Assembly: GCA_027859125.1 (NCBI GenBank)
Contig: JAQIBK010000043.1
Coordinates: 1 to 41,307, forward strand
From: Actinomycetota bacterium
GTDB lineage: Bacteria; Actinomycetota; Coriobacteriia; Anaerosomatales; UBA3086
Length of the DNA stretch: 41,307 bases
Direction: 5' to 3'
This document shows positions 11,580 to 35,335 of the stretch, in pieces. Numbering within the stretch: the stretch's first letter is position 1; the number at the start of each line of letters is the position of its first letter. The notes under the pieces were generated by a model. That model had not been told where the DNA came from and searched no databases. It worked only from the letters and a program-made list of their open reading frames with translations. Made by a program: the position numbers and the translations under genes.

Positions 11580-12863
11580 ATGAAGAAGCAGATCACAGTT
11601 TTTGGGGCAGGTTATGTTGGGCTGATCGCAGGCGTCTGTCTGGCCCACTCGGGCCATGACGTGACCGTATGTGATATTGACCGAGACAAGCTGGCAGAAC
11701 TGACTGCCGGATACAGCCCGATCTTCGAACCAGGCCTTGAAGCACTTCTGACGGAGGGCTTGAACAAAGGCAACCTGCGTTTCTTCCACACCGACGATCT
11801 GCCGGAAGTCCTTTCAGGGATCATCTTCGTGGCGGTCGGCACCCCGCCGACACCCTCTGGCTCGGCCGACATGACATATGTGAGGACGGTCATCGACTCG
11901 GTGGCGATGTGCGCAGAGCCGGACACCCTGCTGGTCATGAAGAGCACTGTCCCTCCGGGAACCGGAGTGAAGCTCTCTTCACGCCTCAATGGTTCGGGAG
12001 TCGAATACGTCTCCAATCCTGAATTCCTCCGAGAAGGTTCCGCGGTCAACGACTGGTACCGCACCGACCGAATCGTGCTGGGTGGATCCGAGAAAGCCGT
12101 CAGTAGAGCGGCAGCGCTGTATGCCGATGTCGAAGCACCCATGCTCGCCTGCGATATCACGAGTGCTGAGATGATCAAGTACGCGAGCAACGCATTCCTG
12201 GCCACCAAGATCTCCTTCATCAACGAAATCGCCTCCATATGCGATCTGGTGGGTGCTCAGATCGACTTTGTGGCACAAGGTGTCGGAATGGACGGACGCA
12301 TCGGCCCGGCGTTCCTCAAGCCCGGCATAGGCTACGGCGGCTCATGCTTTCCCAAGGACACCCGAGCACTGGACTTCCTGGCCTCATTCAACGGTTACGA
12401 CTTCCACCTCCTTCGCGGAGTCATAGAGGTCAATGCTCGTCAACGCATGATGCCGGTTCGTGCCCTCATGGAGCATATCGGCGACTTGGACGGCAAGCGC
12501 GTCGCAGTCCTGGGCCTTACTTTCAAGCCGGACACTGACGACACGCGCGAAGCGCCCGCAGTGGATATCATCTCCATGCTCGCAGCAGAGGGCGCTGACG
12601 TGACCGGCTACAATCCGGTGCCTACAACGTTGACAGGGCCGTTCACAGTTGCCGACTCGATCGATGCCGCCGTGGAAGGCGCAAACGCGGTGATCGTCAC
12701 CACCGAATGGCCGGAGATCTGCAACGCAGACTGGGCAGCACTCGTGCCCGGGATGGCACCCGACGTGCTGATATACGACGGTCGCAACTGTCTCTCCCCC
12801 GACACGATCCGGTCATCTGGCGCCAGGTACGTGGGCGTGGGTCGACCCCAGATCGGGGCATGA
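11580..12863 (+). CDS. ugd: UDP-glucose 6-dehydrogenase
   Basis: GAGYVG Rossmann motif, VGTP, KSTVPPG, SNPEFLREG, KYASNAFLA, GYGGSCFPKD catalytic Cys, FKPDTDDTREAP. Confidence 0.93.
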   Translation: MKKQITVFGAGYVGLIAGVCLAHSGHDVTVCDIDRDKLAELTAGYSPIFEPGLEALLTEGLNKGNLRFFHTDDLPEVLSGIIFVAVGTPPTPSGSADMTYVRTVIDSVAMCAEPDTLLVMKSTVPPGTGVKLSSRLNGSGVEYVSNPEFLREGSAVNDWYRTDRIVLGGSEKAVSRAAALYADVEAPMLACDITSAEMIKYASNAFLATKISFINEIASICDLVGAQIDFVAQGVGMDGRIGPAFLKPGIGYGGSCFPKDTRALDFLASFNGYDFHLLRGVIEVNARQRMMPVRALMEHIGDLDGKRVAVLGLTFKPDTDDTREAPAVDIISMLAAEGADVTGYNPVPTTLTGPFTVADSIDAAVEGANAVIVTTEWPEICNADWAALVPGMAPDVLIYDGRNCLSPDTIRSSGARYVGVGRPQIGA

Positions 12864-12908
12864 ACGTTTCAGAGCAATATGTCAGTCTCTTTGGCTCTAG
12901 GAGGACCC

Positions 12909-14027
12909 GTGTCCCGTTTCAATCTGAACGACTCCGCGCTCGAACCGATCGCCGACAAGATCGTCGCTGGTGAACGCCTATCCCGCGAGGACGGCATCGC
13001 ACTGTATGCAAGCCGTGACCTCGTAGGCATCGGGCAACTGGCCGACTTCGTTCGTCGCGAACAGAACGGCGACCGAGTTCACTTCATGGTCAATCGTCAC
13101 ATCAACCCCACGAACGTGTGCCGCAACCGCTGCAAGTTCTGCGCCTTCGCCCGCAGTGAGGGCGAGGAGGGCGCTTATGCCATGACGCTCGATGCGATCG
13201 TGGACGCCGCCATCGAAGGCGCCAACGACGGCGCGTACGAGGTTCACATCGTGAGCGGTCTGCACCCCGAGTGGAGCTACGAGTTCTATGTGGACATGGT
13301 GCGCCGTGTCCGGGAGGCGATCCCCAAGCGTGTCATCGTGCAGGCGTTCACCGCCGTTGAGATCGAGCACATGGCCATCATCGCCGAGAAGAGCACGCTC
13401 GAAGTCCTGCGCGATCTTCAGGAGGCCGGGCTGGACGCCCTACCCGGTGGCGGTGCAGAGATATTCTCGGATCGCACACGAGCGGCGGCCTGGGACAAGA
13501 AGACGACAAGCGACGTCTGGCTTCGCATCCACGGTGAGGCCCACTCGCTAGGAATCAAGACCAACTGCACCATGCTCTACGGCCATATAGAGACCTCTGA
13601 AGAACGCGTGGACCATCTGATCACCTTGCGGGAGCAACAGGACAAGAGCGGAGGCTTCCTGGCCTTCATCCCGCTCGCGTTCCATCCCGCCAACACCGAG
13701 CTCGAGGACCTGCCGGGAACGACCGGTTTCGATGACCTCAAGACCTTGGGGATCGCACGCCTCATGCTCGACAACATCCCGCACATCAAGGCGTTCTGGA
13801 TCATGATCGGGCTCAAGATGGCTCAACTCTCGACCGTCTTCGGTGTCGATGACATCGACGGCACGGTCGTAGAGGAGAAGATCACTCACATGGCCGGTGC
13901 CACCACGCCGGAGGCGCTGTCCAAACAGGACCTAGTGGACATGATCCGCGAGACCGGCCACACGCCGGTGGAGCGAGACACGCTCTACAACTACATAAAG
14001 GTGTACGACGCGGACACGACCGAATAA
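12909..14027 (+). CDS. mqnE: aminofutalosine synthase (radical SAM)
   Basis: GTG at 12909 after SD AGGAGG; NRHINPTNVCRNRCKFC, PGGGAEIF, TMLYGHIE, HIKAFW, DIDGTVVEEKI. Confidence 0.92.
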   Translation: MSRFNLNDSALEPIADKIVAGERLSREDGIALYASRDLVGIGQLADFVRREQNGDRVHFMVNRHINPTNVCRNRCKFCAFARSEGEEGAYAMTLDAIVDAAIEGANDGAYEVHIVSGLHPEWSYEFYVDMVRRVREAIPKRVIVQAFTAVEIEHMAIIAEKSTLEVLRDLQEAGLDALPGGGAEIFSDRTRAAAWDKKTTSDVWLRIHGEAHSLGIKTNCTMLYGHIETSEERVDHLITLREQQDKSGGFLAFIPLAFHPANTELEDLPGTTGFDDLKTLGIARLMLDNIPHIKAFWIMIGLKMAQLSTVFGVDDIDGTVVEEKITHMAGATTPEALSKQDLVDMIRETGHTPVERDTLYNYIKVYDADTTE

Positions 14028-14028
14028 C

Positions 14029-14862
14029 ATGCGCCCCCGCCTGGGTCACATCCAGTTCCTGAACTGCCTGCCGCTCTACTACGGTCTGGTCAAGAACGAC
14101 GTGCTCCTTGACGTCGACCTGGTTCAAGCGGCCCCCAAGGACCTCACCCGCATGCTGCTGGACGGCAAGCTCGACATCGCACCGATACCTGCGATCGAGT
14201 ACGCGCGCAACGCGAAGGACCTCGTACTGCTCCCCGACATCGCGATCTCGAGCGAAGGGGAGGTCCAGTCGATCCTGCTGCTGTCCAAAGTGCCCGTAGA
14301 TGAGCTCGATGGCGCCCGCGTGGCCCTGACCGACACGTCGCGCACATCTCAGGTGCTGGCCCGAGTGCTGCTCCAGAACCACTGGGAAGTGACCCCCGAG
14401 TATGTGGAGATGCCACCGGATCTTCCCGCGATGCTTCGCGATGCCGATGCAGCGCTCCTCATCGGCGATGAGGCCCTACGTGCGTACTGGGAGCATGACG
14501 AGAACCTGCACGCATACGACCTGGGCGATGTCTGGACACAGTGGACGGGCCTTCCCATGGTTTACGCCGTATGGGCCGTGAGACGCGACTACGCCGAGAA
14601 TGAGGCTGGCGCTCTCTCGAGCGTTGCGCACGCCCTCTCAGGCTCACTCGCCTACTGTCGGGCCAACCTGGACGACATCGCCGAGTACGCTGCTCGCTGG
14701 GAGTCCTTCCCCGTCGGCCACTTCCGTTCGTATTTCGACGCGCTTCAATTCAGATTCGAGCCCCGCTACCGTGAAGGCCTCGCTCGCTACCTCAGCGAGG
14801 CCCACAACATAGAACAACTGGAAACGATCCCACGGATAGAGATCGCGGAGGTCTCCACATGA
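14029..14862 (+). CDS. mqnA: chorismate dehydratase
   Basis: GHIQFLNCLPLYYGL, VQSILL, SRTS, LLIGDEAL, DLGDVWTQWTGLPMVYAVW. Confidence 0.93.
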   Translation: MRPRLGHIQFLNCLPLYYGLVKNDVLLDVDLVQAAPKDLTRMLLDGKLDIAPIPAIEYARNAKDLVLLPDIAISSEGEVQSILLLSKVPVDELDGARVALTDTSRTSQVLARVLLQNHWEVTPEYVEMPPDLPAMLRDADAALLIGDEALRAYWEHDENLHAYDLGDVWTQWTGLPMVYAVWAVRRDYAENEAGALSSVAHALSGSLAYCRANLDDIAEYAARWESFPVGHFRSYFDALQFRFEPRYREGLARYLSEAHNIEQLETIPRIEIAEVST

Positions 14863-15959
14863 TGGACAGGGATACCGCACGGGAACTCGCTCTCAAAGCG
14901 GGGAACGGGGAGTACCGCCTCACCGACGACGAGACACTGCTGTTGCTCTCCTCGGCGGAACTGCTCGACTTGGGCTCCTCGGCCACCGCCATGCGGAACA
15001 GACTCCATCCGGGCGACGACGTCACCTTCATAGTCGACCGCAACGTGAACTACACCAACGTCTGCGTCTCACGCTGTCGTTTCTGCGCGTTCTATCGCGA
15101 CCAGGACGAGCCCGACGCATACGTTCTCACGCAAGAGCAGCTGGACGAGAAGATCGCGGAGACGCTCGACTTGGAGGGAACGGCGATCCTGCTCCAGGGC
15201 GGCATGCATCCGGAGCTGGGCGTCGACTGGTACGAGCACATGCTCCACAGCATCAAGTGCGGGCATCCTGACATCCACGTCCACGGCTTCGGTCCGCCGG
15301 AGATCGTGCATATCGCCCGCGTGTCCGACCTCTCAGTACATGACACGCTGATCAGATTGCGTGATGCCGGGCTCGACTCCCTGCCCGGTGGCGGCGCGGA
15401 GATCCTGTCGGATCGGGTCCGTGCGTACTCCTCGCCCAAGAAGGCGACCGCCGAGGAGTGGATCGGCGTCATGCGCAAAGCGCACGAGATCGACATGTCG
15501 ACGACCGCCACCATGATGTTCGGCGGCGCCGAGACGATCTTGGAACGAGTCGAGCACCTGCGACGCATCCGTGACCTGCAGGATGAGTCGATGGCGGCCG
15601 GACGCGTGGGCTTTCGCGCGTTCATCCCCTGGTCATTCCAGCCGGGCAACACCGAACAGGGTGGCGGAACAGCCACGAGCTGGGAGTATCTGCGGATGCT
15701 CGCCGTGTCACGTTTGTACTTGGACAACGTGCCCAATATCCAGGCCTCATGGGTCACACAGGGGGAGAAGATCGGACAGGTCGCGCTCGCCTTCGGTGCC
15801 AACGACATGGGCTCGACGATGATCGAAGAGAACGTTGTGGCTGCAGCGGGGGTGCGATTCCGTGTCGGCCGTGACGAGCTTGTCTGGTTGATACGCGAAG
15901 CTGGTTTCACACCTGTGCAACGCGACACCCTATACCGCGAAGTCAGACGTTTCGGGTAG
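14859..15959 (+). CDS. mqnC: cyclic dehypoxanthinyl futalosine synthase (radical SAM)
   Basis: DRNVNYTNVCVSRCRFCAFY, LLQGG, TATMMFG, AFIPWSFQ, NIQASWVTQG, GSTMIEENVV. Confidence 0.93.
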   Translation: MMDRDTARELALKAGNGEYRLTDDETLLLLSSAELLDLGSSATAMRNRLHPGDDVTFIVDRNVNYTNVCVSRCRFCAFYRDQDEPDAYVLTQEQLDEKIAETLDLEGTAILLQGGMHPELGVDWYEHMLHSIKCGHPDIHVHGFGPPEIVHIARVSDLSVHDTLIRLRDAGLDSLPGGGAEILSDRVRAYSSPKKATAEEWIGVMRKAHEIDMSTTATMMFGGAETILERVEHLRRIRDLQDESMAAGRVGFRAFIPWSFQPGNTEQGGGTATSWEYLRMLAVSRLYLDNVPNIQASWVTQGEKIGQVALAFGANDMGSTMIEENVVAAAGVRFRVGRDELVWLIREAGFTPVQRDTLYREVRRFG

Positions 15960-15992: not shown

Positions 15993-16880
15993 ATGCCCGA
16001 TCAGAACATACCCCGAGCCACGTTCGGAATATGCGGCGGTTCAGGAACTCTGTCCTTCGCATTTCCTGCAGGCCTGGACGACAACCGTGTGACCGTACTG
16101 GCAGAGGACCTCGTGTTCGACACACCGTTCGGTCGCTCTCCGGTGTTCACGCACTTCCGCGTCGATGGCCCCCATGGTCCCCGCGAGGCAATGTCCGTCA
16201 AGATGCACGGGTGGCGTCGTGGCGTGAAGCGCGCAGACGCCTCGCTCCAGACCTTCTGGGTGTTCCATGAGGCCGGAGTCAGCAAAGTGCTCGCCGACGG
16301 CGGTGTAGGCTCTCTCAACCACCTTCTAGACCCCCGCGACATCGTGATCCCCAATGACTTCATGGATCTGAGCATGAAACAGGACATCTACGTTCGCGGA
16401 GACCACCTTCTGATCATGCGTCAACCGGTCTGTGGGAACCTATCGGCCCAGCTGTTCAACGCGGCAAGTGAATCCTTCGATCGAGTCTATCGACGTGGCA
16501 CCTACACGGTGACGGATGGACCTCGATTCGAGTCGGTGGCAGAGGTCGACTACATGAAGCGACTCGGGGGCGACGTCATCGGTCAGTCCTTCTCGCCAGA
16601 GGTCTTCCTGGCCCGTGATATCGGCGCCTGTTACGCGGGCATCTACATCGTGGTCAACTACGGCGAGGGCATCGTGCGCGACTGGGAGCACGATGAGCTC
16701 AAGTCGATCTTCTTCGACGAGTCCACGACTATCGCCCGTTGCGTGATCGACGCGGTCAGCGCCACGGACATGGGCGCCCCCTGTGAGTGCGCGGAGCATC
16801 GCAAGCCGAGTCTTCTGGATATCGCCGACGAGCGTCCCGATGATCAACGACCCATGCCCACTTCGAGCAGAGAACAGTAG
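15993..16880 (+). CDS. MTAP/PNP-family nucleoside phosphorylase-fold protein with atypical active site (candidate futalosine hydrolase)
   Basis: GICGGSG, DTPFG, xHG, VGSL, GPRFES, PEVFLARD, VVNYG; SD AGGAGG; inside the mqn cluster. Confidence 0.85.
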   Translation: MPDQNIPRATFGICGGSGTLSFAFPAGLDDNRVTVLAEDLVFDTPFGRSPVFTHFRVDGPHGPREAMSVKMHGWRRGVKRADASLQTFWVFHEAGVSKVLADGGVGSLNHLLDPRDIVIPNDFMDLSMKQDIYVRGDHLLIMRQPVCGNLSAQLFNAASESFDRVYRRGTYTVTDGPRFESVAEVDYMKRLGGDVIGQSFSPEVFLARDIGACYAGIYIVVNYGEGIVRDWEHDELKSIFFDESTTIARCVIDAVSATDMGAPCECAEHRKPSLLDIADERPDDQRPMPTSSREQ

Positions 16881-16889
16881 GTCTGAACT

Positions 16890-18209
16890 GTGCTACTCAC
16901 TGCTGACTGGGTCATCCCGGTTTCAGGTCCACCCATCAGGAATGGCGCGATACTCGTCAAGGGTCACACGATCGATGAGATCGGCACGATCGACGATCTT
17001 GCCCAGAAAGACCCCCGTGCCGTGCGAAGCGACTTCCCCGGGTGCGTGATAACGCCCGGGTTGGTGAATGCGCACACGCATCTCTCTCTAACAGTTCTCG
17101 GCGGGTTGATTCCGCCACAGGAGTTCCACGATTGGATCGCACATGTTCCGGCGACTGTTCGAGCGTTGGACCAGAACGATCTTGCCGCATCCGCCTCGGC
17201 TGGTGCGATCGAATGCCTCATGACCGGGGCCACTGTTGTCGGTGACATCGCGTACGGGCCAGAGGCCCCTTCCGCAGCGTCGGACATGGGATTGGCCGGC
17301 ACTTTCTTCTGGGAGGTGCTGGGGATTGCAGGAGAGGATCTCGAGCGTCGACTCAAAGAAGATGACTATCCTGAGAGCCCTCCAAAGTCATGCTCTGGCA
17401 GGGCGCGATGCGGACTTTCTCCGCACTCACCCTACACATCTGGACCAAGCCTCCTTCGAGCGGTCCGCGATCTGACGAGAAAACATGAAGTCGGTTTCGC
17501 CGTGCATATCGCCGAGTCCCCCGCTGAGGTCGAACTGATCAGAGACGGCACCGGACCACTGGCTCATCTGGCCTCTCGTTTTGCGACGGAGTTCCGCACG
17601 CCAGGAGTCACTCCGGTCAGGTACCTGCATTCGCTGGGCGCACTGGAGGGCGCAGTTGCAGTTCACTGCGTACACGTACCTCCCGCTGACATCCCACTTC
17701 TGGCGAATCAAGCCCGCGGAGTGGTCTTCTGTCCGCGCTCCAATGCCTATCTGAACGCTGGTCAGGCGCCGGTCACCAGGATCATGAACGCCGGAGCCCG
17801 TATCGGACTGGGAACGGACTCGTCGGCGAGCAACATTGACTTGGACCTGCTCAAGGAACTCCGAGTGCTCATTGCGGGTGCGCCAACGATCTCACCGGAA
17901 CGCGGCCTGCGAATCATAACCATCGAAGGGGCGGAGGTCCTTGGACTCGATGACGCGTTCGGCAGCCTGGAACCAGGGAAACAGGCCGACATCTCGATCT
18001 GGAGAATGCCTTCGACGGACCAACCTGTTCGCGACCTGATCGAGCAAGGGAGCGGCAAGTCGATCGAAGCCGTGATGAGTTCGGGGATCTGGAGAATACG
18101 AAGCGGCCAGCCCGCGTTCCCGACCGGGAACATCGAACTGGCCGCCAAGCACGCGCAGATCAAGGCTGCTCTGGCCCTGAAAGGGTCGCAGCCGAGTTCG
18201 TCGGCCTAG
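16890..18209 (+). CDS. metal-dependent amidohydrolase, probable aminodeoxyfutalosine deaminase
   Basis: PGLVNAHTHL, SPHSPY, VHIAESPAE, AVHCV, LGTDSSASN, GSLEPGKQAD (COG0402 type); mqn context. Confidence 0.8.
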   Translation: MLLTADWVIPVSGPPIRNGAILVKGHTIDEIGTIDDLAQKDPRAVRSDFPGCVITPGLVNAHTHLSLTVLGGLIPPQEFHDWIAHVPATVRALDQNDLAASASAGAIECLMTGATVVGDIAYGPEAPSAASDMGLAGTFFWEVLGIAGEDLERRLKEDDYPESPPKSCSGRARCGLSPHSPYTSGPSLLRAVRDLTRKHEVGFAVHIAESPAEVELIRDGTGPLAHLASRFATEFRTPGVTPVRYLHSLGALEGAVAVHCVHVPPADIPLLANQARGVVFCPRSNAYLNAGQAPVTRIMNAGARIGLGTDSSASNIDLDLLKELRVLIAGAPTISPERGLRIITIEGAEVLGLDDAFGSLEPGKQADISIWRMPSTDQPVRDLIEQGSGKSIEAVMSSGIWRIRSGQPAFPTGNIELAAKHAQIKAALALKGSQPSSSA

Positions 18210-28083: not shown

Positions 28084-29103
28084 TCACCCTCCAATCTGCG
28101 ACATGCCGCGCACAGTACCGCGTCGCTGCTCGTGCGTTTCAGGCTTCTCTCTCAGTGCGGCGGCAATCACCTCGTTCACTTCTCGGTCCGTGCCCTCACG
28201 CAGCGCTGTCTTGACATCGAACTCCCGGTCCGAGAACAAACATGGCCTGATTCGACCGTCGGCCGTCAGACGCAACCTGTTGCACTCGCCGCAGAAGTGC
28301 CGCGACAGCGGTGAAATGACACCCAAAGTGCCGACGGAAGCCGGCATCGTGAAGTAGCGAGCCGGACCCCATCCCTCGGGACCCTGGCCTTTGTGCACGG
28401 CCTCTATGGGCCCCAGCCCCTGAGCCGACATTGCAGTGCCGAGCGTTTCAATGATCTCGTCCGATGGCACGTGATCGGCCTCGGTCCAACACCCTTGGTG
28501 CCCTCGCGCGCCCACAGCGTTGGCGTCTCCGACAGGCATGTACTCGATGAACCGCACGTGGATCGGTCGATCGATCGCCAACTTGGCGAACGAGGCGAGA
28601 TCCTGCTCCAACGAGCGAACCACGACCACATTGAGTTTCACGGGCTTGAACCCGACCTCCAGTGCGGTATCGAGCCCGTCAAGAGCATCCTGAAGTCGTC
28701 CGCCTCGTGTCATCTCCGCGTAGACATCGGGATCCAGTGAATCGAGTGATATGTTCACACGCGACAAGCCCGCGTCGCGCAGCTGCTGTGCATACTTGGG
28801 CAACAGGATCGCATTCGTCGTGAGCGCGATGGAGTCGAGTCCGGTGATCGCCCTCAAGCGTCTGACATGCCCGACGAGACCCTTGCGCACCAGTGGCTCC
28901 CCGCCTGTGAGGCGAATCTTCCGGATCCCATTCTCCACCGCGATCGCCGCGAACCGCTCGATCTCCTCAAAACTCAGGATGCCCTCCATGGGCTTCCACT
29001 CAATGCCCTCAGGCGGCATGCAGTAGACGCAGCGCAAGTTGCATCTGTCGGTGACGCTTATTCGCAGATAGTCGATCGTACGTCCATGCGAGTCATGCGC
29101 CAT
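28084..29103 (-). CDS. moaA: GTP 3',8-cyclase
   Basis: [39 protein letters not shown]...PCL, C-terminal MSQIGG. Start at MAHDSHGR. Confidence 0.96.
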
Positions 29104-29617
29104 TCCGGTTCGCTCCTTCCACGTTCGTGAGGAATGTAGCTTCCAGGAATCCTGCGATTCCCGCCGCATCGTCAAGATCGAACGATGGAACGCCGGGCAG
29201 CGTCGCAAAGTCAGTGACCAGAGCGATAACGTCCTTGGGGGCACTGATCAACTCAGTCGATCGAGCCTTGCGCGCAACCTCGATCCGTGCACGAGCTGTG
29301 CGCTTGAAGCCCTCAGCGATGAGTATGTCCACGTCGCCCGCATACTGCACTATCTCGTCGATCGAGAGCTCATGCTCGACCTTGCGCATGACCGCGAACT
29401 TGGTGGGCGCCGATACCATCGACACCACGGCCCCTGCCTGCGCGTGGCGATACGAGTCCTTGCCGGGAACGTCGATCTCAAAGTCGTGAACGTGGTGCTT
29501 CACCGTAGCCACCCTGTGACCGCGGGAGGCTAGTTCAGCCACGACCTTCTCCACTACCGTCGTCTTGCCCGAGTTGGATTCGCCGACGAAGGCCACTATG
29601 GGAACGCCCGTCTCCAT
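29093..29617 (-). CDS. mobB: molybdopterin-guanine dinucleotide biosynthesis protein B
   Basis: GESNSGKTT, VKHHVH, DVPGKDSYRH, EGFK. Start at METGVP. Confidence 0.92.
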   Translation of the reverse strand: METGVPIVAFVGESNSGKTTVVEKVVAELASRGHRVATVKHHVHDFEIDVPGKDSYRHAQAGAVVSMVSAPTKFAVMRKVEHELSIDEIVQYAGDVDILIAEGFKRTARARIEVARKARSTELISAPKDVIALVTDFATLPGVPSFDLDDAAGIAGFLEATFLTNVEGANRNGA

Positions 29618-29648
29618 ACTGTGGGTTCTCCTCACACGTCTGACCGGA

Positions 29649-29861
29649 TCAGAAGCAGCCCAGACCGCAATCATGCACCCTGATCTCGTTCAGGTCGGCT
29701 GCGGCTCCGGCGACTTTGTACGAGACATTCATGTCCTCGGCCAGCTTGCGCAGCACGGCGCACGTGATCTTCCCATCCGACGCGGCGCCCATGACGGCGG
29801 CGGCCAGTTCCGGGGTCACACGATCCGCGATCGCGGGGTCGACTTTCTTGGTTTCACTCAT
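29649..29861 (-). CDS. small Cys-containing hypothetical protein (70 aa, ends CGLGCF)
   Basis: ATGA overlap with the moeA stop; fills the moeA-mobB gap; HTH-like segment ITCAVLRKLAEDMNVSYKVAG; Cys34, Cys65, Cys69. Confidence 0.8.
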   Translation of the reverse strand: MSETKKVDPAIADRVTPELAAAVMGAASDGKITCAVLRKLAEDMNVSYKVAGAAADLNEIRVHDCGLGCF

Positions 29862-31111
29862 AGCTGGATCCCTTCGTCGATATCAAGCCGTATACAGTCC
29901 ACGATCTGGCCTGCTGAGAACTCCCGCTCGCCCTCGGGCAGGACCACGAAGCAGTTGCCCTTGTGCACCGACATGAGAAGCGCAGATGACTGGTTGCCGG
30001 AGAGTGCGACCTCAAGCCCATCTTCTGCGCGTGACACGACCCCGCGCATGAAATAGCGCCTGTCCGGCTTCTTGCGAACGTCATGCGCGAGCCGAGCCCG
30101 GACGATCGGACGATCGAGCTCTGTGTGACCGAGCATGTATCGAATCGCCGGCCTCACGAACATCTCAAAACCCACATATGTGCTGGTCGGATTGCCCGGT
30201 AGCCCAAAGAACGGCGTCTCATCGATCATCCCCATCGTCTGAGGATTGCCAGGACGCATGGTCACCTTGCAGTACATCAGCTCTCCAAGTTCCTGGAGCA
30301 CTGGCTTGACGTAGTCGAAGTCGCCTACCGAGACTCCTCCGGTGGTCACAATGAAATCCGAGTTCGCAGCCGCGTGAGTGAAAGCCTCACGCGTCGCCTG
30401 CATGTCGTCGGGCACGATGTCATAACGCACCGGAATGCCTCCGGCAGCGATCACCTGCGCGGCCACCGAATACGAGTTGGAGTTCCGTATCTTGCCGGGA
30501 CCTGGGACCTGGTCGACCTCGACCAACTCGCTTCCCGTGGACAGCACCGCCACTCTGGGACGACGATACACCGACACCTTCGCGTGCCCCGTGGACGCAA
30601 GCAACCCGAGTCCTGCGGGGCCGATTGACTCACCGCGGTTCAACACGACGTCGCCGGCGCGAACCTCCTCGCCACGGCGCCTCACATTCTCGCCCTCGGC
30701 AACAGCGCGGCTAAGAGCAACAAGTGAATCGATCGCACCATCACCCTCGATCACCGAGGAATACTCGACCATCACGACCGCGTCAGCTCCCAGTGGCATG
30801 GGAGCTCCTGTCATGATGCGCGACGCCTCGCCAGGGCCGACCTCCAGTTCGGGGTAGTCCCCAGCCGCGATGTGCTCGATGATCCGCACCCGAGCCGGCG
30901 TCTGTTCACTCGCCCCGTTCAGATCAGCTGCACGCACAGCAAACCCGTCCATGGCGGAATTGTCGAATGGCGCCACATCGATATCGGATGCCATGTCCTG
31001 TGCAAGTACACGGCCCAAGGAGTCGAGTAGGTCCACCCGCTCGACGTCCATCACTTTCACATGTTGAAGTAGCAGCTCACGCGCCTGCTCAACAGTCATG
31101 GTAGAACTCAT
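29858..31111 (-). CDS. moeA: molybdopterin molybdenum/tungsten transferase
   Basis: GRVLA, PFDNSAMDGFA, IMTGAP, STGSEL, NSN, TTGGVSVGDFD, GLPGNP, SGNQSS. SD GGAGG; start MSSTMT. Confidence 0.96.
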   Translation of the reverse strand: MSSTMTVEQARELLLQHVKVMDVERVDLLDSLGRVLAQDMASDIDVAPFDNSAMDGFAVRAADLNGASEQTPARVRIIEHIAAGDYPELEVGPGEASRIMTGAPMPLGADAVVMVEYSSVIEGDGAIDSLVALSRAVAEGENVRRRGEEVRAGDVVLNRGESIGPAGLGLLASTGHAKVSVYRRPRVAVLSTGSELVEVDQVPGPGKIRNSNSYSVAAQVIAAGGIPVRYDIVPDDMQATREAFTHAAANSDFIVTTGGVSVGDFDYVKPVLQELGELMYCKVTMRPGNPQTMGMIDETPFFGLPGNPTSTYVGFEMFVRPAIRYMLGHTELDRPIVRARLAHDVRKKPDRRYFMRGVVSRAEDGLEVALSGNQSSALLMSVHKGNCFVVLPEGEREFSAGQIVDCIRLDIDEGIQL

Positions 31112-32508
31112 ACCGAACCTCCTTCCCTGATACGCCATGCGTTCGTGTAGATCACTAGTTTGCCGCCTCTCGCATAGCCGATCAGAGTGACTCCGAGCTC
31201 GCTCGCCACCTCTGCCGCAAGATCAGTGACTGCCGTGCGTGACACTACTATCGGCACACCGGCGCGCATCGCCTTGACCGCCATTTCCGAGGAGATCCGT
31301 CCACTTGTCAGCAACACGGCGTGATCGAGGGTAGCTCCATCGCGCCACGCTGCCCCAAGCACCTTGTCGAGCGCGTTGTGCCTGCCGACATCCTCACGCA
31401 TGAAGGCGATAGTTCCGCCCATACCGATCGCACACGCGTGCATACCGCCCGTCTCACGGTAACGCTCTGCGCCTCTGGCCATCTGGCCCATCATGTCGTA
31501 CACGCTCTCCGCAGTGATGGACAGGCCCGATTCAACCGGATCCACGCCGGTCAGATGACCTGCGGATGTGAACGTGACACCTCGGCCGCAGCCGCTGGTC
31601 ACGTAGCGCTTGCGCCCTCGCATACTGACGGGCGTCTCCTCGTCCGAAGTCACGAAGACCATGCCCCGACGGGCGTCCACCTCGATGCAGCCGAGCCGAT
31701 CGCGGTCAGTCAGGAATCCCTCAACGTGCAGGAACCCCACGGCCATGTCCTCCAAGTCACTCGGCGTTGCCTGAGCATTCACCATCTCGACTCCATTGAG
31801 ATAGACGGTGATGGGCTTCTCCGAAGGCATTCCTCGGACACGGCGTGTGCCGACCTCGACCACATGCATCCGAACCGTAGTCTCGGACTCCGTTTCCCCG
31901 GAGGTGGTGCGATCCAGATCGTGAGGCGTGTTGATGTTGATCAGGCTCTTGAGATCCGGGTCCACCAACCGCAGCTCATCGGAGGAGACCTCGGTGACCT
32001 TCAGGCGAGCGAATGGCGCCACGGGGCGGCGCTCTCCCGCATCGAGCGTCTCACGAGCCACCGAAAGCACCGTCTTCACGCGATACAGGGCCAGTAACGG
32101 TTCAAGCCCCTTGCCGTCATTGGGTACGACCACATCGGCACCATCTCTGCGTTTCCAGAGCTCGAGCACGACCGCAGAAGTCACCCAAGGCATGTCGGCA
32201 GCCACGACCAACAGCCATTCATCTCTGGCTTGGGCGAGTCCAGTGACAATGCCGCCCAACGGTCCCAGATGATCCACCTCGTCCGTGACTATGAGCACCC
32301 CTTCAGGAAGCCCTGCCTCCGCTGCAGCCTGGGGCCTGGTAGTAACGACCATCACGTTGCGACAGATCTCGCCCATTGCCGACACAACGCGAGACACCAT
32401 CGGGATGCCCTCGATCTCAAGCAGGGTCTTGTCGACGCCCATTCGTTGGGATCGACCGCCCGCCAGCACCGCCGCAGTGATCGGAAGCTTCTCGGTCTCC
32501 TCAGTCAC
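31108..32508 (-). CDS. fdhD: MobA (Mo-cofactor guanylyltransferase)-FdhD (FDH cofactor sulfurtransferase) fusion
   Basis: N-terminal LAGGRSQRMGVDK, GPLGGI, ADMP, EPLLALY, NINTP (MobA). C-terminal EKPITVYLNG, TSGCG, TGGMH, EDVGRHNALDK, SGRISSEM (FdhD). One continuous frame; start GTG at 32508. Confidence 0.9.
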   Translation of the reverse strand: MTEETEKLPITAAVLAGGRSQRMGVDKTLLEIEGIPMVSRVVSAMGEICRNVMVVTTRPQAAAEAGLPEGVLIVTDEVDHLGPLGGIVTGLAQARDEWLLVVAADMPWVTSAVVLELWKRRDGADVVVPNDGKGLEPLLALYRVKTVLSVARETLDAGERRPVAPFARLKVTEVSSDELRLVDPDLKSLININTPHDLDRTTSGETESETTVRMHVVEVGTRRVRGMPSEKPITVYLNGVEMVNAQATPSDLEDMAVGFLHVEGFLTDRDRLGCIEVDARRGMVFVTSDEETPVSMRGRKRYVTSGCGRGVTFTSAGHLTGVDPVESGLSITAESVYDMMGQMARGAERYRETGGMHACAIGMGGTIAFMREDVGRHNALDKVLGAAWRDGATLDHAVLLTSGRISSEMAVKAMRAGVPIVVSRTAVTDLAAEVASELGVTLIGYARGGKLVIYTNAWRIREGGSV

Positions 32509-33607
32509 TTCCCTCGCCCTCCTCCTTCGCGACTCTGACTGCGGTTGCCTTGAATGCGAAGCTGACCTGATCTCCCACTGAGACTTCGAGGTCTCGCACC
32601 GCCGCATCAGATATCGATGCGGCAAGACTCAAACCGTCAACGGCTCCAACCAATGTCCAACTCACACCGCTGCGCCGCAGCGAGGTCACTGTGACATCCA
32701 GTCTGTTGCGAGCTGAAGCCGTTCCCTCAGGCGGCTGCTTCCACACGGTCACGTCTTCCGGCCTCACAGCCAACCGAACACGCTCCCTCGCCGCGATTTC
32801 ACCGGAAGCATAGACCATGGTGCCTCCGACCCGAATGACCATCAGTCCGGCGGAGATCGACTCGACGACCCCGAACAGCGGTGCCTCGACTCCCAGGAAC
32901 GACGCCGTCCATACATCCTGGGGCACGCCGATCACCTCATCGGAGAACCCTTCCGCAACGATGCTCCCGTCCCGCATGATCGCAATGCGGTCGGCCAGCA
33001 CGAGAGCCTCATCGTGATCGTGGGTCACGTATACGGTTGTGATGCCTCTGGAACGGAGTATCTCCGAGAACTCCAACTGCATGCGCCGCTTGAGCATCAG
33101 ATCGAGCGATGACAGCGGCTCATCGAGCATGAGCAGCCGAGGTTCAAGCACCAGAGCGCGAGCCAATGCGACTCGTTGAGCCTCTCCGCCCGAAAGCGCG
33201 CCCGCTGACCGCTTCTCGAATCCGGAAAGACCCACGACCTCGAGTATCTCCGAAACCCTGCGAGCGGTCTCCCGGCGATCCACTCGGCGCAACTTGAGTC
33301 CGTAGGCTACGTTCTCCTCAACGGTGGCCTTGATCAGATACGGCCGCTGAAAGACTGCCGCCGTGAGTCTGCGCGATTCAGAATCGCGAGGTTTGCGACA
33401 TACGCCATCAACGCGCACCTCGCCTGTGTCCGGCGCCTCAAGCAGCCCGGCAATCTCAAGGAGCGTCGACTTCCCGGCACCGCTGGGGCCGAGCAGCGCG
33501 AGCGTAGATCCCGCGGGAACGCGCAGGTACGGGACCGACAGCCTGAAGCCGGCCTTGAACGCGCGCTCCACGCCCATCAGTTCGAGCTCGACTGGCGAGT
33601 CGCTCAT
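32501..33607 (-). CDS. tupC: tungstate ABC transporter ATP-binding protein with TOBE-like C-terminus
   Basis: GPSGAGKST, LSGGEAQRVALARA, LDEP, YVTHD; follows tupAB. Confidence 0.85.
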   Translation of the reverse strand: MSDSPVELELMGVERAFKAGFRLSVPYLRVPAGSTLALLGPSGAGKSTLLEIAGLLEAPDTGEVRVDGVCRKPRDSESRRLTAAVFQRPYLIKATVEENVAYGLKLRRVDRRETARRVSEILEVVGLSGFEKRSAGALSGGEAQRVALARALVLEPRLLMLDEPLSSLDLMLKRRMQLEFSEILRSRGITTVYVTHDHDEALVLADRIAIMRDGSIVAEGFSDEVIGVPQDVWTASFLGVEAPLFGVVESISAGLMVIRVGGTMVYASGEIAARERVRLAVRPEDVTVWKQPPEGTASARNRLDVTVTSLRRSGVSWTLVGAVDGLSLAASISDAAVRDLEVSVGDQVSFAFKATAVRVAKEEGEGSD

Positions 33608-34320
33608 CGGTGGCCCTCGTATCGCTCGGCCGACGTCTGACCGATCACCAGCACCGCGTTCACGATCGCGATCATCCCCAGCAACATCATGGCGAGAGAA
33701 AGCGCCTGACCATATCGGCCCATCCGCGTGAACTGCACGATCGCCGTGGTCATCACACGGGTGTCGCCGGCGATGTTTCCGCCGACCATCTGCACTGCCC
33801 CCACCTCGGAAATGATGGCACCGAACCCGGCTGCAACTGCTGCAGCCACGCCCACCCTGGCCTCTTTCAACACGAGCAGAACCTCATGGAAGCGACTAGC
33901 GCCCAGCGCCCGCGCCTGAAGTCGAAGCTGCCGAGGAACCGCAGCCACTGATGCCGCCGTGAAGGCCACGACCAACGGCAGTGCGATGAGAACCTGCGCG
34001 ACCACCATGGCATCACGCGTGTACAGCATGCTGAGTTCGCCGAACGGCCCACGTCGGGAGAGTCCCATCGCAACGATCAATCCAACAGCGACCGGGGGAA
34101 GCCCCATGCCCGTGTTCGCAACGAGCAATCCGATCCTTCGTCCCGCGAATCGCCGTATTCCCCGCCAGACACCGAGAGGAACACCGACTCCCAGTGCGAT
34201 GAGCGCAGCGGTGCCTGAGACGGCCATCGAGACTCTGATGATCACCCAGACATCCACCGCGCCCGAAGCTAGGAGCTCGATACCTTCGGTCAGGGCATCT
34301 GTGTAGATGCTCCAGCCCAC
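33604..34320 (-). CDS. tupB: tungstate ABC transporter permease
   Basis: NTGMGLPPVAVGL, SRRGPFG, AGFGAIISEVGAVQMVGGNIAGDTRVMTTAI (TupB-type). Confidence 0.9.
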   Translation of the reverse strand: MGWSIYTDALTEGIELLASGAVDVWVIIRVSMAVSGTAALIALGVGVPLGVWRGIRRFAGRRIGLLVANTGMGLPPVAVGLIVAMGLSRRGPFGELSMLYTRDAMVVAQVLIALPLVVAFTAASVAAVPRQLRLQARALGASRFHEVLLVLKEARVGVAAAVAAGFGAIISEVGAVQMVGGNIAGDTRVMTTAIVQFTRMGRYGQALSLAMMLLGMIAIVNAVLVIGQTSAERYEGHR

Positions 34321-34332
34321 TCTGCCTCCCGA

Positions 34333-35220
34333 CTACTTGGCGTTGGGGACGAAAAGGGGTTCACCGAATGTGTCGACTCCGTAGTCAACGATCACGGCTT
34401 GGCCCTCAGCGCTTGTGATCCAGTCAGAGAAAGCCTGTGCGCCTTCCATGTTGGTCGCATCGGTGACCACGATCACGCCGTACTGGTTGAAAAGGTCATC
34501 GGAACCCTCATAGACGACTCCTATGTCCAGCGCATCAAGCAGGTTGAGGAAGGTCGCGCGATCCGTGAGGGTGTAGCCTTGCTTCTCGGACGCGATCTTG
34601 AGCGTGTCGCCCATTCCCTGCCCGGTCGCCAGGTACCAATCCCCTTCGGGAGTCTCCACGCCAGCGGTCGCCCACAGAAAGAGCTCCTTCTTGTTCGTGC
34701 CGGAGTCATCTCCCCGCGAGTAGAACGTGCCACCGTTGTCCATTATCGCTTTCAGAGCTTCGGCAGCCGTGGCGGCGCTACCGGCTTCAGCTGAGTCGCC
34801 ATCAGGACCCACGACGACGAAATCGTTGTACATGACATCCTTGCGTTCAATGCCGAACCCATCTGCGACGAACTCCCCCTCTGAGGATTTTGCGTGCACA
34901 AGAAGCACGTCCGCATCCTTGTTCTCACCCATCGTCAGCGCTTCGCCAGTGCCTACCGCAACGACCTTTGCTATGTACTCTGGATAGGCCTCGTGGAATG
35001 CCGGGATAAGCACATCGAACAACCCGGAATCCTGTGTCGAGGTAGTCGAAGCTAGTATGATCTCCGTCTGCTCGACTTCCGGTGATTCGATCTCAGGTGC
35101 TTCGGAACCCACATCTGCCTCCATCGTTGCATCGGAGCAGCCCAAAAGCACGACTGCCATCAGTACGACGAGGAGAAGAATCGAGAGTTTCGACACCAAC
35201 GTGAAACGTACTCTGCCCAT
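34333..35220 (-). CDS. tupA: tungstate ABC transporter substrate-binding lipoprotein
   Basis: Lipobox VLLGC; ASTTSTQDSGL (TTTS-like), VGTGEAL, VHA, MYNDFVVVGP, SRGDDSGT, GQGMG, YTLTDRAT, NQY. Confidence 0.9.
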   Translation of the reverse strand: MGRVRFTLVSKLSILLLVVLMAVVLLGCSDATMEADVGSEAPEIESPEVEQTEIILASTTSTQDSGLFDVLIPAFHEAYPEYIAKVVAVGTGEALTMGENKDADVLLVHAKSSEGEFVADGFGIERKDVMYNDFVVVGPDGDSAEAGSAATAAEALKAIMDNGGTFYSRGDDSGTNKKELFLWATAGVETPEGDWYLATGQGMGDTLKIASEKQGYTLTDRATFLNLLDALDIGVVYEGSDDLFNQYGVIVVTDATNMEGAQAFSDWITSAEGQAVIVDYGVDTFGEPLFVPNAK

Positions 35221-35335
35221 ATTGATCCCCTTCCAGAACGGGAGATCGCACAGTTTCCCATGCGACCCTGTCGGTCCGGCCACCTTGGCCTGGCAGTGTA
35301 CGGCTACAGGTGAATCGGACTAGGAGTTATTGCGT
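35221..35335 (-). ncRNA. Moco RNA motif (riboswitch candidate), P3-less Tuco-type variant
   Basis: Minus strand: AAUAACUCCUAG-UCCG..CACCU...AGGUG..CGGA-CCGAC-AGGGUCGCAUGG GAAA CUGUGCGAUCU-CCCGUUCUGGAAGGGGA-UCAAU-AUG. This matches the Moco motif layout (GNRA-capped P4, CUCCCG-N4-GGAA(A)GG end holding the SD) and lies directly upstream of the tup/moa operon. Confidence 0.85.

What the first reader, a model, noticed from the sequence alone, without database searches (positions are those of the whole stretch)
15993..16880. MTAP-fold enzyme with a rewired active site in the mqn operon: candidate non-orthologous futalosine hydrolase (MqnB replacement)
Seen: mqnE-mqnA-mqnC are followed directly by this gene and a deaminase, with no mqnB or mtnN in the cluster. 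A by-eye comparison with human MTAP motifs, recalled from memory, shows the phosphate site altered. LARHG becomes VKMHG (Arg to Met71), VTTACGSL becomes ADGGVGSL (Thr to Gly103, with a new Asp102) and NMT becomes GQS. The base site looks 6-oxopurine specific: GPRFE (Glu180) and VVNYG (Asn222) replace TDYD. Known: MqnC needs dehypoxanthinyl futalosine with a free 1'-OH, made by hydrolysis (MqnB or MTAN), and MTAN-type hydrolases use a carboxylate-activated water where phosphorylases bind phosphate. Inference: this protein converted from phosphorylase to hydrolase and removes hypoxanthine from futalosine, a possibly undescribed variant of the pathway.
Basis: partly seen in the sequence, partly recalled or inferred. 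Interest (0 to 1): 0.82.

Follow-up and report, generated by a model that had tools for sequence, protein, structure and literature searches.

The report
MTAP-like enzyme in menaquinone operon
A diverged relative of methylthioadenosine phosphorylase sits in the operon for the futalosine route to vitamin K2 and probably cuts the purine base off a pathway intermediate, in bacteria that lack both of the usual enzymes for that part of the route.

Summary
Window 15993-16880 (+) encodes a 295-aa PF01048 protein between mqnE-mqnA-mqnC and a deaminase-type amidohydrolase. Aligned to human MTAP and to the genome's own canonical MTAP, it has lost the phosphate-binding Arg (Met71). It has Asp102-Gly103 where MTAP has Thr-Thr, and it carries the 6-oxopurine pair Glu180/Asn222. 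These are family hallmarks: among 256 members, Arg71 occurs in 0, Asp/Glu102 in 241, Glu180 in 253 and Asn222 in 244.

The family is not new. Ravcheev & Thiele (2016) named a PF01048 gene next to mqnEAC "mqnZ" and proposed that it replaces MqnD, not MqnB. No biochemistry was found in the library searched.

In 41 genomes of the same order, the gene is present in exactly the 33 that have mqnA. MqnB, MTAN and MqnD were not found in any of the 41. In a 201-genome phylum sample, all 15 carriers lack MqnB and MqnD, while 16 of the 20 other mqn-positive genomes have MqnD.

Best reading (0.6): a futalosine-pathway nucleoside-cleaving enzyme, probably phosphate-independent, that removes hypoxanthine after deamination. 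The missing MqnD remains unexplained, so the enzyme may cover both steps (0.3).

The parts
12879..14027 (+). mqnE, aminofutalosine synthase (radical SAM)
   Evidence: TIGR03700 506 bits against cut-off 434.6
14029..14862 (+). mqnA, chorismate dehydratase; the only PF02621 gene in the genome
   Evidence: PF02621 262 bits; PDB SCO4506 252 bits against MqnD TTHA1568 41 bits; single PF02621 match in the own genome
14859..15959 (+). mqnC, cyclic dehypoxanthinyl futalosine synthase
   Evidence: TIGR03699 474 bits against cut-off 428
15993..16880 (+). target: MTAP-fold NP-I protein of the probable MqnZ family, 295 aa
   Evidence: PF01048 98.5 bits and no NCBIfam model over cut-off; best PDB match human MTAP, E 4.6e-19; Shine-Dalgarno AGGAGG before the ATG
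16035..16073 (+). GGSGT loop (Ser17 kept) followed by the family-specific insertion LSFAFPAG
   Evidence: alignments; Ser17 in 247 of 256 members
16197..16220 (+). VKMHGWRR: Met71 replaces the phosphate-binding Arg; His72-Gly73 are kept; Trp74 is a family hallmark
   Evidence: Arg71 in 0 of 256, His72 in 253 of 256, Trp74 in 212 of 256
16293..16316 (+). ADGGVGSL: Asp102-Gly103-Gly104 in place of T92-T93-A94 of human MTAP
   Evidence: Asp/Glu102 in 241 of 256, Gly103 in 233 of 256
16518..16535 (+). GPRFES: Phe179 and Glu180 (PNP-type 6-oxopurine contact)
   Evidence: Glu180 in 253 of 256
16581..16589 (+). GQS in place of the NMT of MTAP
   Evidence: Gln198 in 194 and His198 in 48 of 256; Ser/Thr199 in 249 of 256
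16650..16691 (+). VVNYGEG...DWEH: Asn222 replaces Asp220 of MTAP; Trp231 is a family hallmark in the region that lines the 5'-substituent pocket in MTAP
   Evidence: Asn222 in 244 of 256, Trp231 in 231 of 256. The pocket assignment is recalled from MTAP structures and was not modelled here.
16782..16790 (+). C-terminal CxC motif, shared with the genome's canonical MTAP
   Evidence: Cys264 in 245 of 256 and Cys266 in 243 of 256
16890..18209 (+). amidohydrolase of the deaminase type, the likely aminofutalosine deaminase
   Evidence: PF01979 160 bits; best PDB match DR_0824 (2IMR) at 134.5 bits, with HxH, HxxE, H and D motifs aligned; NF006269 aminofutalosine deaminase family 140 bits against cut-off 320

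Best explanation
The gene encodes a dedicated futalosine-pathway enzyme of the nucleoside phosphorylase-I fold (trimeric MTAP/PNP branch). It very probably belongs to the family that Ravcheev & Thiele called MqnZ. Proposed route: MqnA and MqnE make aminofutalosine; the neighbouring amidohydrolase deaminates it to futalosine, which is a 5'-substituted inosine; this enzyme binds the hypoxanthine through Glu180/Asn222 and breaks the N-ribosidic bond, giving the free-C1'-OH sugar that the pathway needs around the MqnC step. The only phosphate-binding Arg is gone and an Asp/Glu now sits beside the old phosphate site. The cleavage is therefore most likely hydrolytic, with the carboxylate activating water and Ser17, His72 and Ser199 holding it. 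Shown here: fold family, residue pattern, operon linkage, phyletic linkage, and the failure to find MqnB, MTAN or MqnD. Inferred: substrate, hydrolysis, and the order relative to MqnC. The enzyme appears to descend from methylthioinosine-phosphorylase-like proteins, which already act on 5'-substituted inosines downstream of a deaminase.
For: (1) Fold and site: PF01048. The alignments to human MTAP and to the own-genome MTAP show Arg to Met71, Thr-Thr to Asp102-Gly103, Ser to Glu180 and Asp to Asn222. (2) Family-wide constraint in 256 members at 31-85% identity: Arg71 0, Asp/Glu102 241, Glu180 253, Asn222 244, His72 253. A conserved purine site argues for a nucleoside substrate. (3) The nearest outgroup (71 sequences) keeps Arg71 (51) and Met198 (51) and already has Glu180 (58) and Asn222 (57), so it is MTIP-like. 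(4) Linkage: the order mqnE-mqnA-mqnC-target, or a close variant, occurs in 42 of 65 metagenome loci of at least 6 kb. mqn genes lie within 8 kb in 19 of 30 genome loci. (5) Phyletic pattern: in 41 genomes of the order, the target is present in exactly the 33 that have mqnA and absent from the same 8. The canonical MTAP is present in nearly all 41, so the target is not the housekeeping enzyme. (6) No alternative nucleosidase was found: MqnB TIGR03664 is over cut-off in 0 of 41 and MTAN TIGR01704 in 0 of 41, and MqnB is over cut-off in 0 of 15 carriers in the phylum sample. (7) Deaminase partner: it is adjacent in 26 of 29 family loci and in 9 of 11 distant Actinomycetota loci where the partner is only 32-37% identical. 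It carries the deaminase metal and catalytic motifs and its best PDB match is DR_0824. That DR_0824 deaminates aminofutalosine is recalled from Goble et al. 2013; only the citation was seen, in a reference list. (8) The late pathway genes UbiD and UbiA are present and adjacent in 5 of 5 complete relatives, so the product is needed.
Against: (1) The same genomes also lack MqnD: 33 of 33 mqn-positive relatives and 15 of 15 carriers in the phylum sample have a single PF02621 gene, and it is MqnA. A pure MqnB replacement leaves that step without an enzyme. (2) MqnD and the target are mutually exclusive and nearly exhaustive among 35 mqn-positive genomes (15 target only, 16 MqnD only, 4 neither, 0 both). 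By contrast, 7 of the 16 MqnD genomes have no MqnB over cut-off and no target. Five of these were examined: four carry an MTAP or MTIP above an NCBIfam cut-off, in G055 that MTAP is the only PF01048 protein, and G170 has only sub-threshold proteins. The own genome also has a canonical MTAP, so the base could in principle be removed without this gene. (3) In the Bacillota-like loci the deaminase is adjacent in only 7 of 65. (4) Three of the old phosphate ligands are retained, so anion binding and phosphorolysis are not excluded.
Confidence: 0.6

Rival explanations
1. The enzyme replaces MqnD only, as in the published MqnZ proposal. It converts base-free cyclic dehypoxanthinyl futalosine to 1,4-dihydroxy-6-naphthoate, and the base is removed earlier by another enzyme such as the canonical MTAP.
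For: Ravcheev & Thiele 2016 found the PF01048 gene only with mqn genes and never with mqnD (PMC4746308, passages read). Here, target and MqnD are exclusive: 0 of 15 carriers have a second PF02621 gene, and 16 of the 20 other mqn-positive genomes do. In the order, MqnD was found in 0 of 33. No MqnD lies in 121 family loci covering 1.46 Mb. Four of the five examined genomes with MqnD but no MqnB carry a canonical MTAP or MTIP (G170 has only sub-threshold proteins), and the own genome has a canonical MTAP too.
Against: The substrate of MqnD has no purine, yet Glu180 (253 of 256), Asn222 (244 of 256) and Phe179 (235 of 256) of the purine and ribose site stay fixed across a family that has diverged to about 31% identity. 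The tight pairing with a purine-deaminase-type amidohydrolase in Actinomycetota makes sense only if the enzyme sees the base. No NP-I enzyme is known to me to catalyse a ring-opening retro-aldol reaction (recalled).
Confidence: 0.15
2. It cleaves futalosine but is still a phosphorylase, giving the sugar 1-phosphate. That product is then dephosphorylated or used as such downstream.
For: Ser17 (247 of 256), His72 (253 of 256) and Ser/Thr199 (249 of 256) of the phosphate site are kept. The ancestors were phosphorylases. Four of the five MqnB-less MqnD genomes examined (G043, G055, G060, G220) carry only canonical phosphorylases of this fold; the fifth, G170, has only sub-threshold MTAP-like and DeoD-like proteins.
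Against: The sole phosphate-binding Arg is absent in 256 of 256 members. Thr93 is Gly in 233 of 256, and an Asp/Glu, which would repel phosphate, lies next to the site in 241 of 256. No phosphatase is conserved in the operons.
Confidence: 0.15
3. It is a salvage enzyme that, together with the deaminase, clears 5'-deoxyadenosine or methylthioadenosine produced by the radical SAM enzymes MqnE and MqnC. The route would run through 5'-deoxyinosine or methylthioinosine. It would not be a biosynthetic step.
For: A deaminase plus a 6-oxopurine-specific MTAP homologue is the known MTA/5'-dAdo route in Pseudomonas aeruginosa and Methanocaldococcus jannaschii (review PMC6302742, passages read). The amidohydrolase scores equally on the 5'-deoxyadenosine deaminase model (NF005557, 141 bits) and the aminofutalosine deaminase model (NF006269, 140 bits).
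Against: The genome already has a canonical MTAP and a PNP. The family lost the phosphate Arg that the MTIP-like relatives keep. Its exclusivity with MqnD and MqnB is not expected of a by-product scavenger.
Confidence: 0.07

Closest known systems
MqnZ (bioinformatic prediction; Ravcheev & Thiele, Front Microbiol 2016, PMC4746308)
   Same: The only family similarity is to PF01048. The gene is co-localised with mqnC/mqnE or the mqnEAC operon, and the genomes have no mqnD. Named Bacillota members of the target's family include a Negativicute (Propionispora hippei, 50% identical), Heliobacterium and Thermaerobacter.
   Different: They proposed an MqnD function and did not analyse the active site. 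They saw it in Bacillota, whereas here it is in Actinomycetota MAGs, paired with a deaminase, in genomes that also lack MqnB and MTAN.
Human and archaeal 5'-methylthioadenosine phosphorylase (MTAP; PDB 1CB0, 1WTA)
   Same: Best solved relatives (E 4.6e-19 and 1.8e-18). It shares the same fold family, the GGSG loop, His61, the GPRF motif and the C-terminal CxC motif of archaeal and bacterial MTAPs.
   Different: Identity is about 25%. The Arg60 equivalent is Met. Thr92/Thr93 are Asp/Gly. The adenine-specific Asp220/Asp222 are Asn/Gly. Met196 is Gln. There is an 8-residue insertion after the GGSGT loop. TIGR01694 scores 102 bits against a cut-off of 275.
Methylthioinosine phosphorylase (MTIP; NF006599; Pseudomonas aeruginosa PDB 3OZB)
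   Same: It is a 6-oxopurine-type MTAP homologue that works downstream of a deaminase on a 5'-substituted inosine. The nearest non-family relatives of the target have this residue pattern.
   Different: MTIP-like relatives keep Arg71 and Met198. The target scores 88 bits against a cut-off of 223 and is linked to mqn genes.
Futalosine hydrolase MqnB (TIGR03664) and MTAN (TIGR01704)
   Same: The proposed reaction is the same: removal of the purine from futalosine or aminofutalosine. They belong to the same broad PF01048 superfamily. MTAN-type hydrolases use a carboxylate-activated water where phosphorylases bind phosphate (recalled).
   Different: They belong to a different branch of the superfamily. 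Neither model appears among the target's NCBIfam matches at E<=0.01. Neither was found over cut-off in the own genome or in 41 relatives.

Membership tests
PNP_UDP_1 / nucleoside phosphorylase-I superfamily (PF01048) | Profile match above the Pfam gathering score | tested here: met
   98.5 bits against 25.1, residues 32-253
PNP_UDP_1 / nucleoside phosphorylase-I superfamily (PF01048) | Trimeric MTAP/PNP fold with the active site at subunit interfaces | not testable with these tools
There is sequence similarity only, to 58 solved MTAP/PNP chains.
MTAP (TIGR01694 equivalog) | Score above the curated cut-off | tested here: not met
   102.2 bits against 274.85
MTAP (TIGR01694 equivalog) | Phosphate-binding Arg (R60 of human MTAP) | tested here: not met
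   Met71; Arg in 0 of 256 family members
MTAP (TIGR01694 equivalog) | Adenine-specific Asp220/Asp222 | tested here: not met
   Asn222/Gly224
MTIP (NF006599) | Score above cut-off, and the phosphate Arg together with 6-oxopurine residues | tested here: not met
   88.3 bits against 223. Glu180 and Asn222 are present but the Arg is absent.
MqnB futalosine hydrolase (TIGR03664) | Profile match | tested here: not met
   Not among the NCBIfam matches of the protein at E<=0.01; no match in the genome at E<=0.1
MqnB futalosine hydrolase (TIGR03664) | Hydrolyses futalosine to dehypoxanthinyl futalosine plus hypoxanthine | not testable with these tools
   Needs an enzyme assay
MqnZ (Ravcheev & Thiele 2016) | PF01048-only protein co-localised with mqnC/mqnE or mqnEAC | tested here: met
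   Window gene order; 42 of 65 metagenome loci and 19 of 30 genome loci
MqnZ (Ravcheev & Thiele 2016) | Occurs in genomes without mqnD | tested here: met
   Single PF02621 gene, which is MqnA, in the own genome, in 33 of 33 mqn-positive relatives and in 15 of 15 phylum carriers
MqnZ (Ravcheev & Thiele 2016) | Orthology to the named loci (e.g. MHY_27640 of Megamonas) | not tested
Indirect support: a Negativicute member (Propionispora hippei, P0350) is 50% identical and has all hallmarks.

The most novel reading that the evidence does not exclude
One enzyme replaces two. The MqnZ-type protein removes hypoxanthine from futalosine, or from futalosine already cyclised by MqnC. It then uses the carboxylate that now occupies the former phosphate site to open and isomerise the resulting hemiacetal, so that 1,4-dihydroxy-6-naphthoate forms without MqnD. 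This would define a shorter mqnE-A-C-Z futalosine pathway that is widespread in Actinomycetota and Bacillota.
Probability: 0.3. Interest if true: 0.85.

Novelty: new variant of a known kind. Interest (0 to 1): 0.62.

Why it matters
The futalosine pathway is the menaquinone route of many anaerobes and of several pathogens, and it is treated as a drug target. Its textbook form needs MqnB (or MTAN) and MqnD. Here a large, conserved family of MTAP-like proteins marks genomes in which neither enzyme can be found although the late steps are present. Pathway reconstruction from metagenomes currently labels these genes 'MTAP family purine nucleoside phosphorylase' and would score the pathway as incomplete. 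The single published idea about the gene (an MqnD substitute) conflicts with its conserved purine site. Three assays would settle which step or steps the enzyme performs. They would also show whether a phosphorylase scaffold became a hydrolase by losing one Arg and gaining one carboxylate.

Tried and rejected
Looked for a conserved extra gene that could supply MqnD. Genes inserted between mqnC and the target in 15 relatives vary (Pyr_redox_2 in 4, DUF2750, NhaA, SPFH and others) and none is conserved. The frequent neighbours in 65 metagenome loci are housekeeping genes: UPF0182, Ddl, GuaA, PFK, a GDSL lipase and others.

Asked whether MqnC differs in carrier genomes, which might mean a different substrate. 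In a quick IQ-TREE (LG+G4, SH-aLRT only) of 63 MqnC and 7 MqnE sequences, MqnC from target-type and MqnD-type genomes is interleaved. The target-type Actinomycetota label needs 6 changes and the MqnD-type label needs 5. Before the tree, 18 near-identical (>=80%) metagenome rows were dropped, reducing 88 rows to 70. So there is no sign of a specialised MqnC. This weakly disfavours, but does not exclude, a changed order of steps.

Asked whether MqnA might double as MqnD. The MqnA proteins of carrier genomes are ordinary: they score 144-252 bits to chorismate dehydratase and 25-41 bits to MqnD. Nothing supports the idea.

Fusion proteins did not help. P0122 (491 aa) carries RNase H plus the domain, and other long hits have no second Pfam domain.

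Expression: the look-up of sequencing runs listed no RNA holder. It listed 3 DNA runs of one study, and read laying was not used.

Bacillota genomes could not be checked for MTAN or MqnD. For Bacillota I rely on the 2016 paper and on flanks of up to 10 kb.

Literature: the searches for 'futalosine/MqnB/phosphorylase', 'futalosine hydrolase/missing/mqnB', 'MqnZ', 'dihydroxy-6-naphthoate/mqnD/lack/futalosine pathway/PF01048' and 'cyclic dehypoxanthine futalosine/MqnD/mechanism/hemiacetal' found no biochemical study of this family in the library. Subscription journals are mostly not held, and supplements (for example the gene tables of PMC4746308) were not seen. Goble et al. 2013 was not held, so the activity of DR_0824 is recalled.

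Unpublished genomes: the tool flagged G128, G186, G108, G088, G160, G211, G058 and G041. They enter only the denominator of 201 genomes, and none is among the 35 mqn-positive genomes.
Full report
**What is there**

The window is contig C284 of a 2.39-Mb, 322-contig, 90.7%-complete genome. The closest protein relatives are from MAGs labelled Coriobacteriia or Actinomycetota. On the + strand lie a UDP-glucose dehydrogenase (11580-12863), mqnE (12879-14027), mqnA (14029-14862), mqnC (14859-15959), the target (15993-16880) and an amidohydrolase (16890-18209). The gaps are 1-33 nt or the genes overlap, and a liv-type ABC transporter converges from the other strand. mqnE and mqnC score above their NCBIfam equivalog cut-offs. 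The PF02621 protein is MqnA, not MqnD: it scores 252 bits to chorismate dehydratase SCO4506 and 41 bits to TTHA1568. The target has a Shine-Dalgarno AGGAGG before its ATG.

**The protein**

It matches PF01048 (98.5 bits) but no NCBIfam model above cut-off. The best solved relatives are human and archaeal MTAPs, with E about 1e-19. The genome holds two ordinary paralogues. One is a canonical MTAP on C164 with RHG, NACGSL, INMT and TDHD motifs. The other is a PNP on C109, next to SAH hydrolase.

Arg60 becomes Met71. Thr92-Thr93-Ala94 become Asp102-Gly103-Gly104. Ser178 becomes Glu180. Asn-Met-Thr becomes Gly-Gln-Ser. Asp220 becomes Asn222 and Asp222 becomes Gly224. There is also an 8-residue insertion after the GGSGT loop and a DWxH motif after the base loop.

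**The family**

A scan of 1.84 billion representatives gave 38 clusters at E<=1e-30. Word-indexed searches gave hundreds of close members. Named members include Propionispora hippei (a Negativicute), Heliobacterium chlorum, Heliobacillus mobilis, Thermaerobacter, Effusibacillus, Paenactinomyces, Brevibacillus fulvus, Paenibacillus abyssi, Caldinitratiruptor, Maliibacterium, a Treponema MAG and a Firestonebacteria MAG. All are annotated only as 'MTAP family purine nucleoside phosphorylase' or similar.

I built an HMM from a 35-sequence alignment (A4) and scored all 384 sequences in hand. The scores were bimodal: 118 scored below 200 bits and 243 scored at or above 300 bits. I took 256 full-length sequences scoring at least 200 bits as family members. 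The family was defined with a profile built from its own members, which is partly circular, although the clear score gap supports the split.

| Position | Residue | Family (of 256) |
|---|---|---|
| 71 | Arg | 0 (Met 172, Phe 69) |
| 72 | His | 253 |
| 74 | Trp | 212 |
| 102 | Asp/Glu | 241 |
| 103 | Gly | 233 |
| 180 | Glu | 253 |
| 198 | Gln / His | 194 / 48 |
| 199 | Ser/Thr | 249 |
| 222 | Asn | 244 |
| 231 | Trp | 231 |

The 71 lower-scoring relatives mostly have Arg71 (51), Met198 (51), Glu180 (58) and Asn222 (57). The nearest outgroup therefore looks like methylthioinosine phosphorylase. The 6-oxopurine site is inherited. The family's own innovations are the loss of Arg, the new carboxylate, Gln198 and the Trp residues.

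**Linkage to the pathway**

- Of 30 genome-contig loci, 29 are family members; the thirtieth is a Sphingomonas canonical MTAP at 35% identity. mqnE, mqnA or mqnC lie within 8 kb in 19 loci, and the amidohydrolase is directly downstream in 26.
- In 11 loci from more distant Actinomycetota (50-54% identity), the order mqnA-mqnC-target-amidohydrolase holds in 9, although the amidohydrolase is only 32-37% identical.
- A metagenome scan seeded with a Bacillota-centred alignment returned 80 loci, of which 65 are at least 6 kb. Of these, 40 have mqnC immediately before the target, usually as mqnE-mqnA-mqnC-target. Two have target-mqnE-mqnA-mqnC. 32 have mqnA, and only 7 have the amidohydrolase adjacent.
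- No MqnD or MqnB gene lies in any of 121 family loci covering 1.46 Mb. The only tblastn hits of an Actinomycetota MqnD were weak (23-30% identity) and fell on the mqnA genes.

**Phyletic pattern, same order (41 genomes including the own)**

PF02621 is found in 33 genomes, always as one gene; in two assemblies that gene is in pieces. This includes the closed genomes G018 and G019. The target is found at E<1e-60 in exactly those 33, split in three of them. It is not found in the other 8, which have only the canonical MTAP at E 1e-15 to 1e-20. MqnB is over cut-off in 0 of 41 and MTAN in 0 of 41. UbiD and UbiA are adjacent in 5 of 5 complete relatives. In the own assembly UbiA sits at the start of contig C214 and UbiD was not found, most likely because of a contig break.

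**Phyletic pattern, phylum sample (201 genomes at least 90% complete)**

35 genomes have strong PF02621 matches, and 15 have the target at E<=1e-28.

| Group | Genomes | PF02621 genes | MqnB over cut-off |
|---|---|---|---|
| Target present | 15 | exactly one in all 15 | 0 of 15 |
| Target absent, mqn-positive | 20 | two or more in 16; one in 4 | 10 of 20 (9 of the 16, plus G045) |

In f59, a lineage of target carriers, the single PF02621 gene was checked and is MqnA. In G187 the second PF02621 gene was checked and is MqnD, at 260 bits to TTHA1568. The other second copies were not individually checked.

Seven MqnD genomes have neither MqnB over cut-off nor the target. Five were examined. Four carry an MTAP or MTIP above an NCBIfam cut-off, and in G055 that MTAP is the only PF01048 protein. 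G170 has only sub-threshold MTAP-like and DeoD-like proteins.

Four mqn-positive genomes have neither MqnD nor the target (G045, G091, G104, G232). G091 has mqnE-A-C-amidohydrolase-ubiE-reductase-nuo, and G104 has mqnE-A-C-ubiX running to a contig end. Related genomes are not independent, so these are counts and not statistics. On the MqnC tree, however, the two configurations interleave and need 5-6 changes each, so the exclusivity has been re-established several times.

**What is known**

Ravcheev & Thiele 2016 (PMC4746308, passages of sections 9 and 12 read) reported a PF01048-only gene. It clusters with mqnC and mqnE in Mitsuokella, Megamonas and Selenomonas, and with mqnEAC in Pelotomaculum, Syntrophomonas, Syntrophothermus and Thermosinus. 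It was never found together with mqnD. They named it mqnZ and proposed that it replaces MqnD, noting that the sequence gave no support for that chemistry. The searches named under Tried and rejected found no later biochemical work in the library.

A review (PMC6302742, passages read) points out that methylthioinosine resembles futalosine, and that a promiscuous archaeal MTIP might accept futalosine-type substrates. Zhi et al. 2014 (PMC3914697, passages read) surveyed MqnA, MqnC and MqnD and do not mention this gene.

**Interpretation**

Two lines of evidence pull in different directions. The active site says nucleoside. A PNP-type 6-oxopurine pocket is held nearly invariant over deep divergence, and in Actinomycetota the gene is locked to a deaminase. 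That deaminase has all the catalytic motifs, and its best solved relative is DR_0824. This points to futalosine, a 5'-substituted inosine, as the substrate. The loss of the only phosphate Arg, together with the new carboxylate, points to hydrolysis.

The phyletic pattern says MqnD. The gene and MqnD are mutually exclusive and together account for 31 of 35 pathway-positive genomes. MqnB, by contrast, is dispensable even where the gene is absent. That is the published idea. Neither single replacement fills both holes in the 48 carrier genomes that lack MqnB, MTAN and MqnD alike.

I therefore commit to the core statement that the enzyme cleaves the N-ribosidic bond of a futalosine-type nucleoside within the pathway (0.6), most likely hydrolytically (about 0.7 given the first). 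I rate at 0.3 the bolder reading that the same enzyme also makes MqnD unnecessary. It could do so by acting twice, or by acting on the cyclised nucleoside and then catalysing hemiacetal opening and isomerisation with the new carboxylate. MqnD-only (0.15), phosphorolysis (0.15) and by-product salvage (0.07) remain open.

**Limits**

- No structure model could be made.
- Bacillota genomes could not be queried.
- Only one second PF02621 copy was verified as MqnD.
- The MqnC tree is a quick search without bootstraps.
- The identity with MqnZ rests on shared properties and on a Negativicute member, not on the original locus.

Noticed in passing
whole genome G000 and relatives G001-G040; window 14029-14862: MqnD (1,4-dihydroxy-6-naphthoate synthase) was not found. 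There is one PF02621 gene per genome, and it is MqnA, in 33 of 33 mqn-positive genomes of the order, two of them closed. UbiD and UbiA late-step genes are present in the 5 complete relatives checked.
   Followed up: yes
window 35725-38853 (+), TGA at 36325-36327: A molybdopterin oxidoreductase reads through an in-frame TGA in the context HQARI-TGA-HSSTV and has a twin-arginine signal (RRGFFK). It is probably a selenocysteine formate dehydrogenase alpha subunit. It is followed by a 4Fe-4S subunit (38857-39663) and a cytochrome b561 subunit (39664-40350), which would make a quinone-linked Fdn-type enzyme.
   Followed up: partly
window 28084-35283 (-): A molybdenum cofactor cluster: MoaA (28084-29244), MoeA (29858-31138), a MobA-FdhD fusion (31108-32625) and a molybdate-type ABC permease and binding protein (33604-35283). 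It lies next to the formate dehydrogenase.
   Followed up: no
L087, L090, L116, L119, L120, L123 (metagenome loci): A variant operon has two MqnE paralogues, followed by mqnC and the target, with no mqnA in the operon. In L087, the only locus checked, both paralogues score above the TIGR03700 cut-off (461 and 445 bits). The variant occurs in 6 of 65 loci.
   Followed up: partly
G043, G055, G060, G170, G220 (loci L160-L171): These Actinomycetota genomes have MqnA, MqnC and MqnD but no MqnB, MTAN or target. Four carry an MTAP or MTIP above an NCBIfam cut-off, and in G055 it is the only PF01048 protein. This suggests an ordinary phosphorylase may remove the base there. G170 instead has a second, diverged MTAP-like protein (135 bits).
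   Followed up: partly
G091:C64 (L157, L159): The operon is mqnE-mqnA-mqnC-amidohydrolase-ubiE-FAD reductase-nuoB/C/D/E/F. It has no target, MqnD or MqnB in a 97%-complete genome. This is a fourth configuration, and the enzymes for its middle steps are unknown.
   Followed up: partly
L005, L012, L016, L018: In 4 of 15 relatives with a gap between mqnC and the target, the inserted gene belongs to one blastp cluster. One member (L012) was scanned and is a Pyr_redox_2 protein of about 424-486 aa, possibly a type II NADH:quinone oxidoreductase.
   Followed up: no
P0122 (representative library): A 491-aa protein joins an RNase H domain (residues 10-158) to a full copy of the target's domain (212-455). 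It may be a true fusion or a merged gene call.
   Followed up: no
G000:C214:514-1233: The only UbiA-family prenyltransferase of the own assembly lies at the very start of a contig, and UbiD was not found in the assembly. In relatives UbiD lies just upstream of UbiA, so the own UbiD is probably lost at a contig break.
   Followed up: partly
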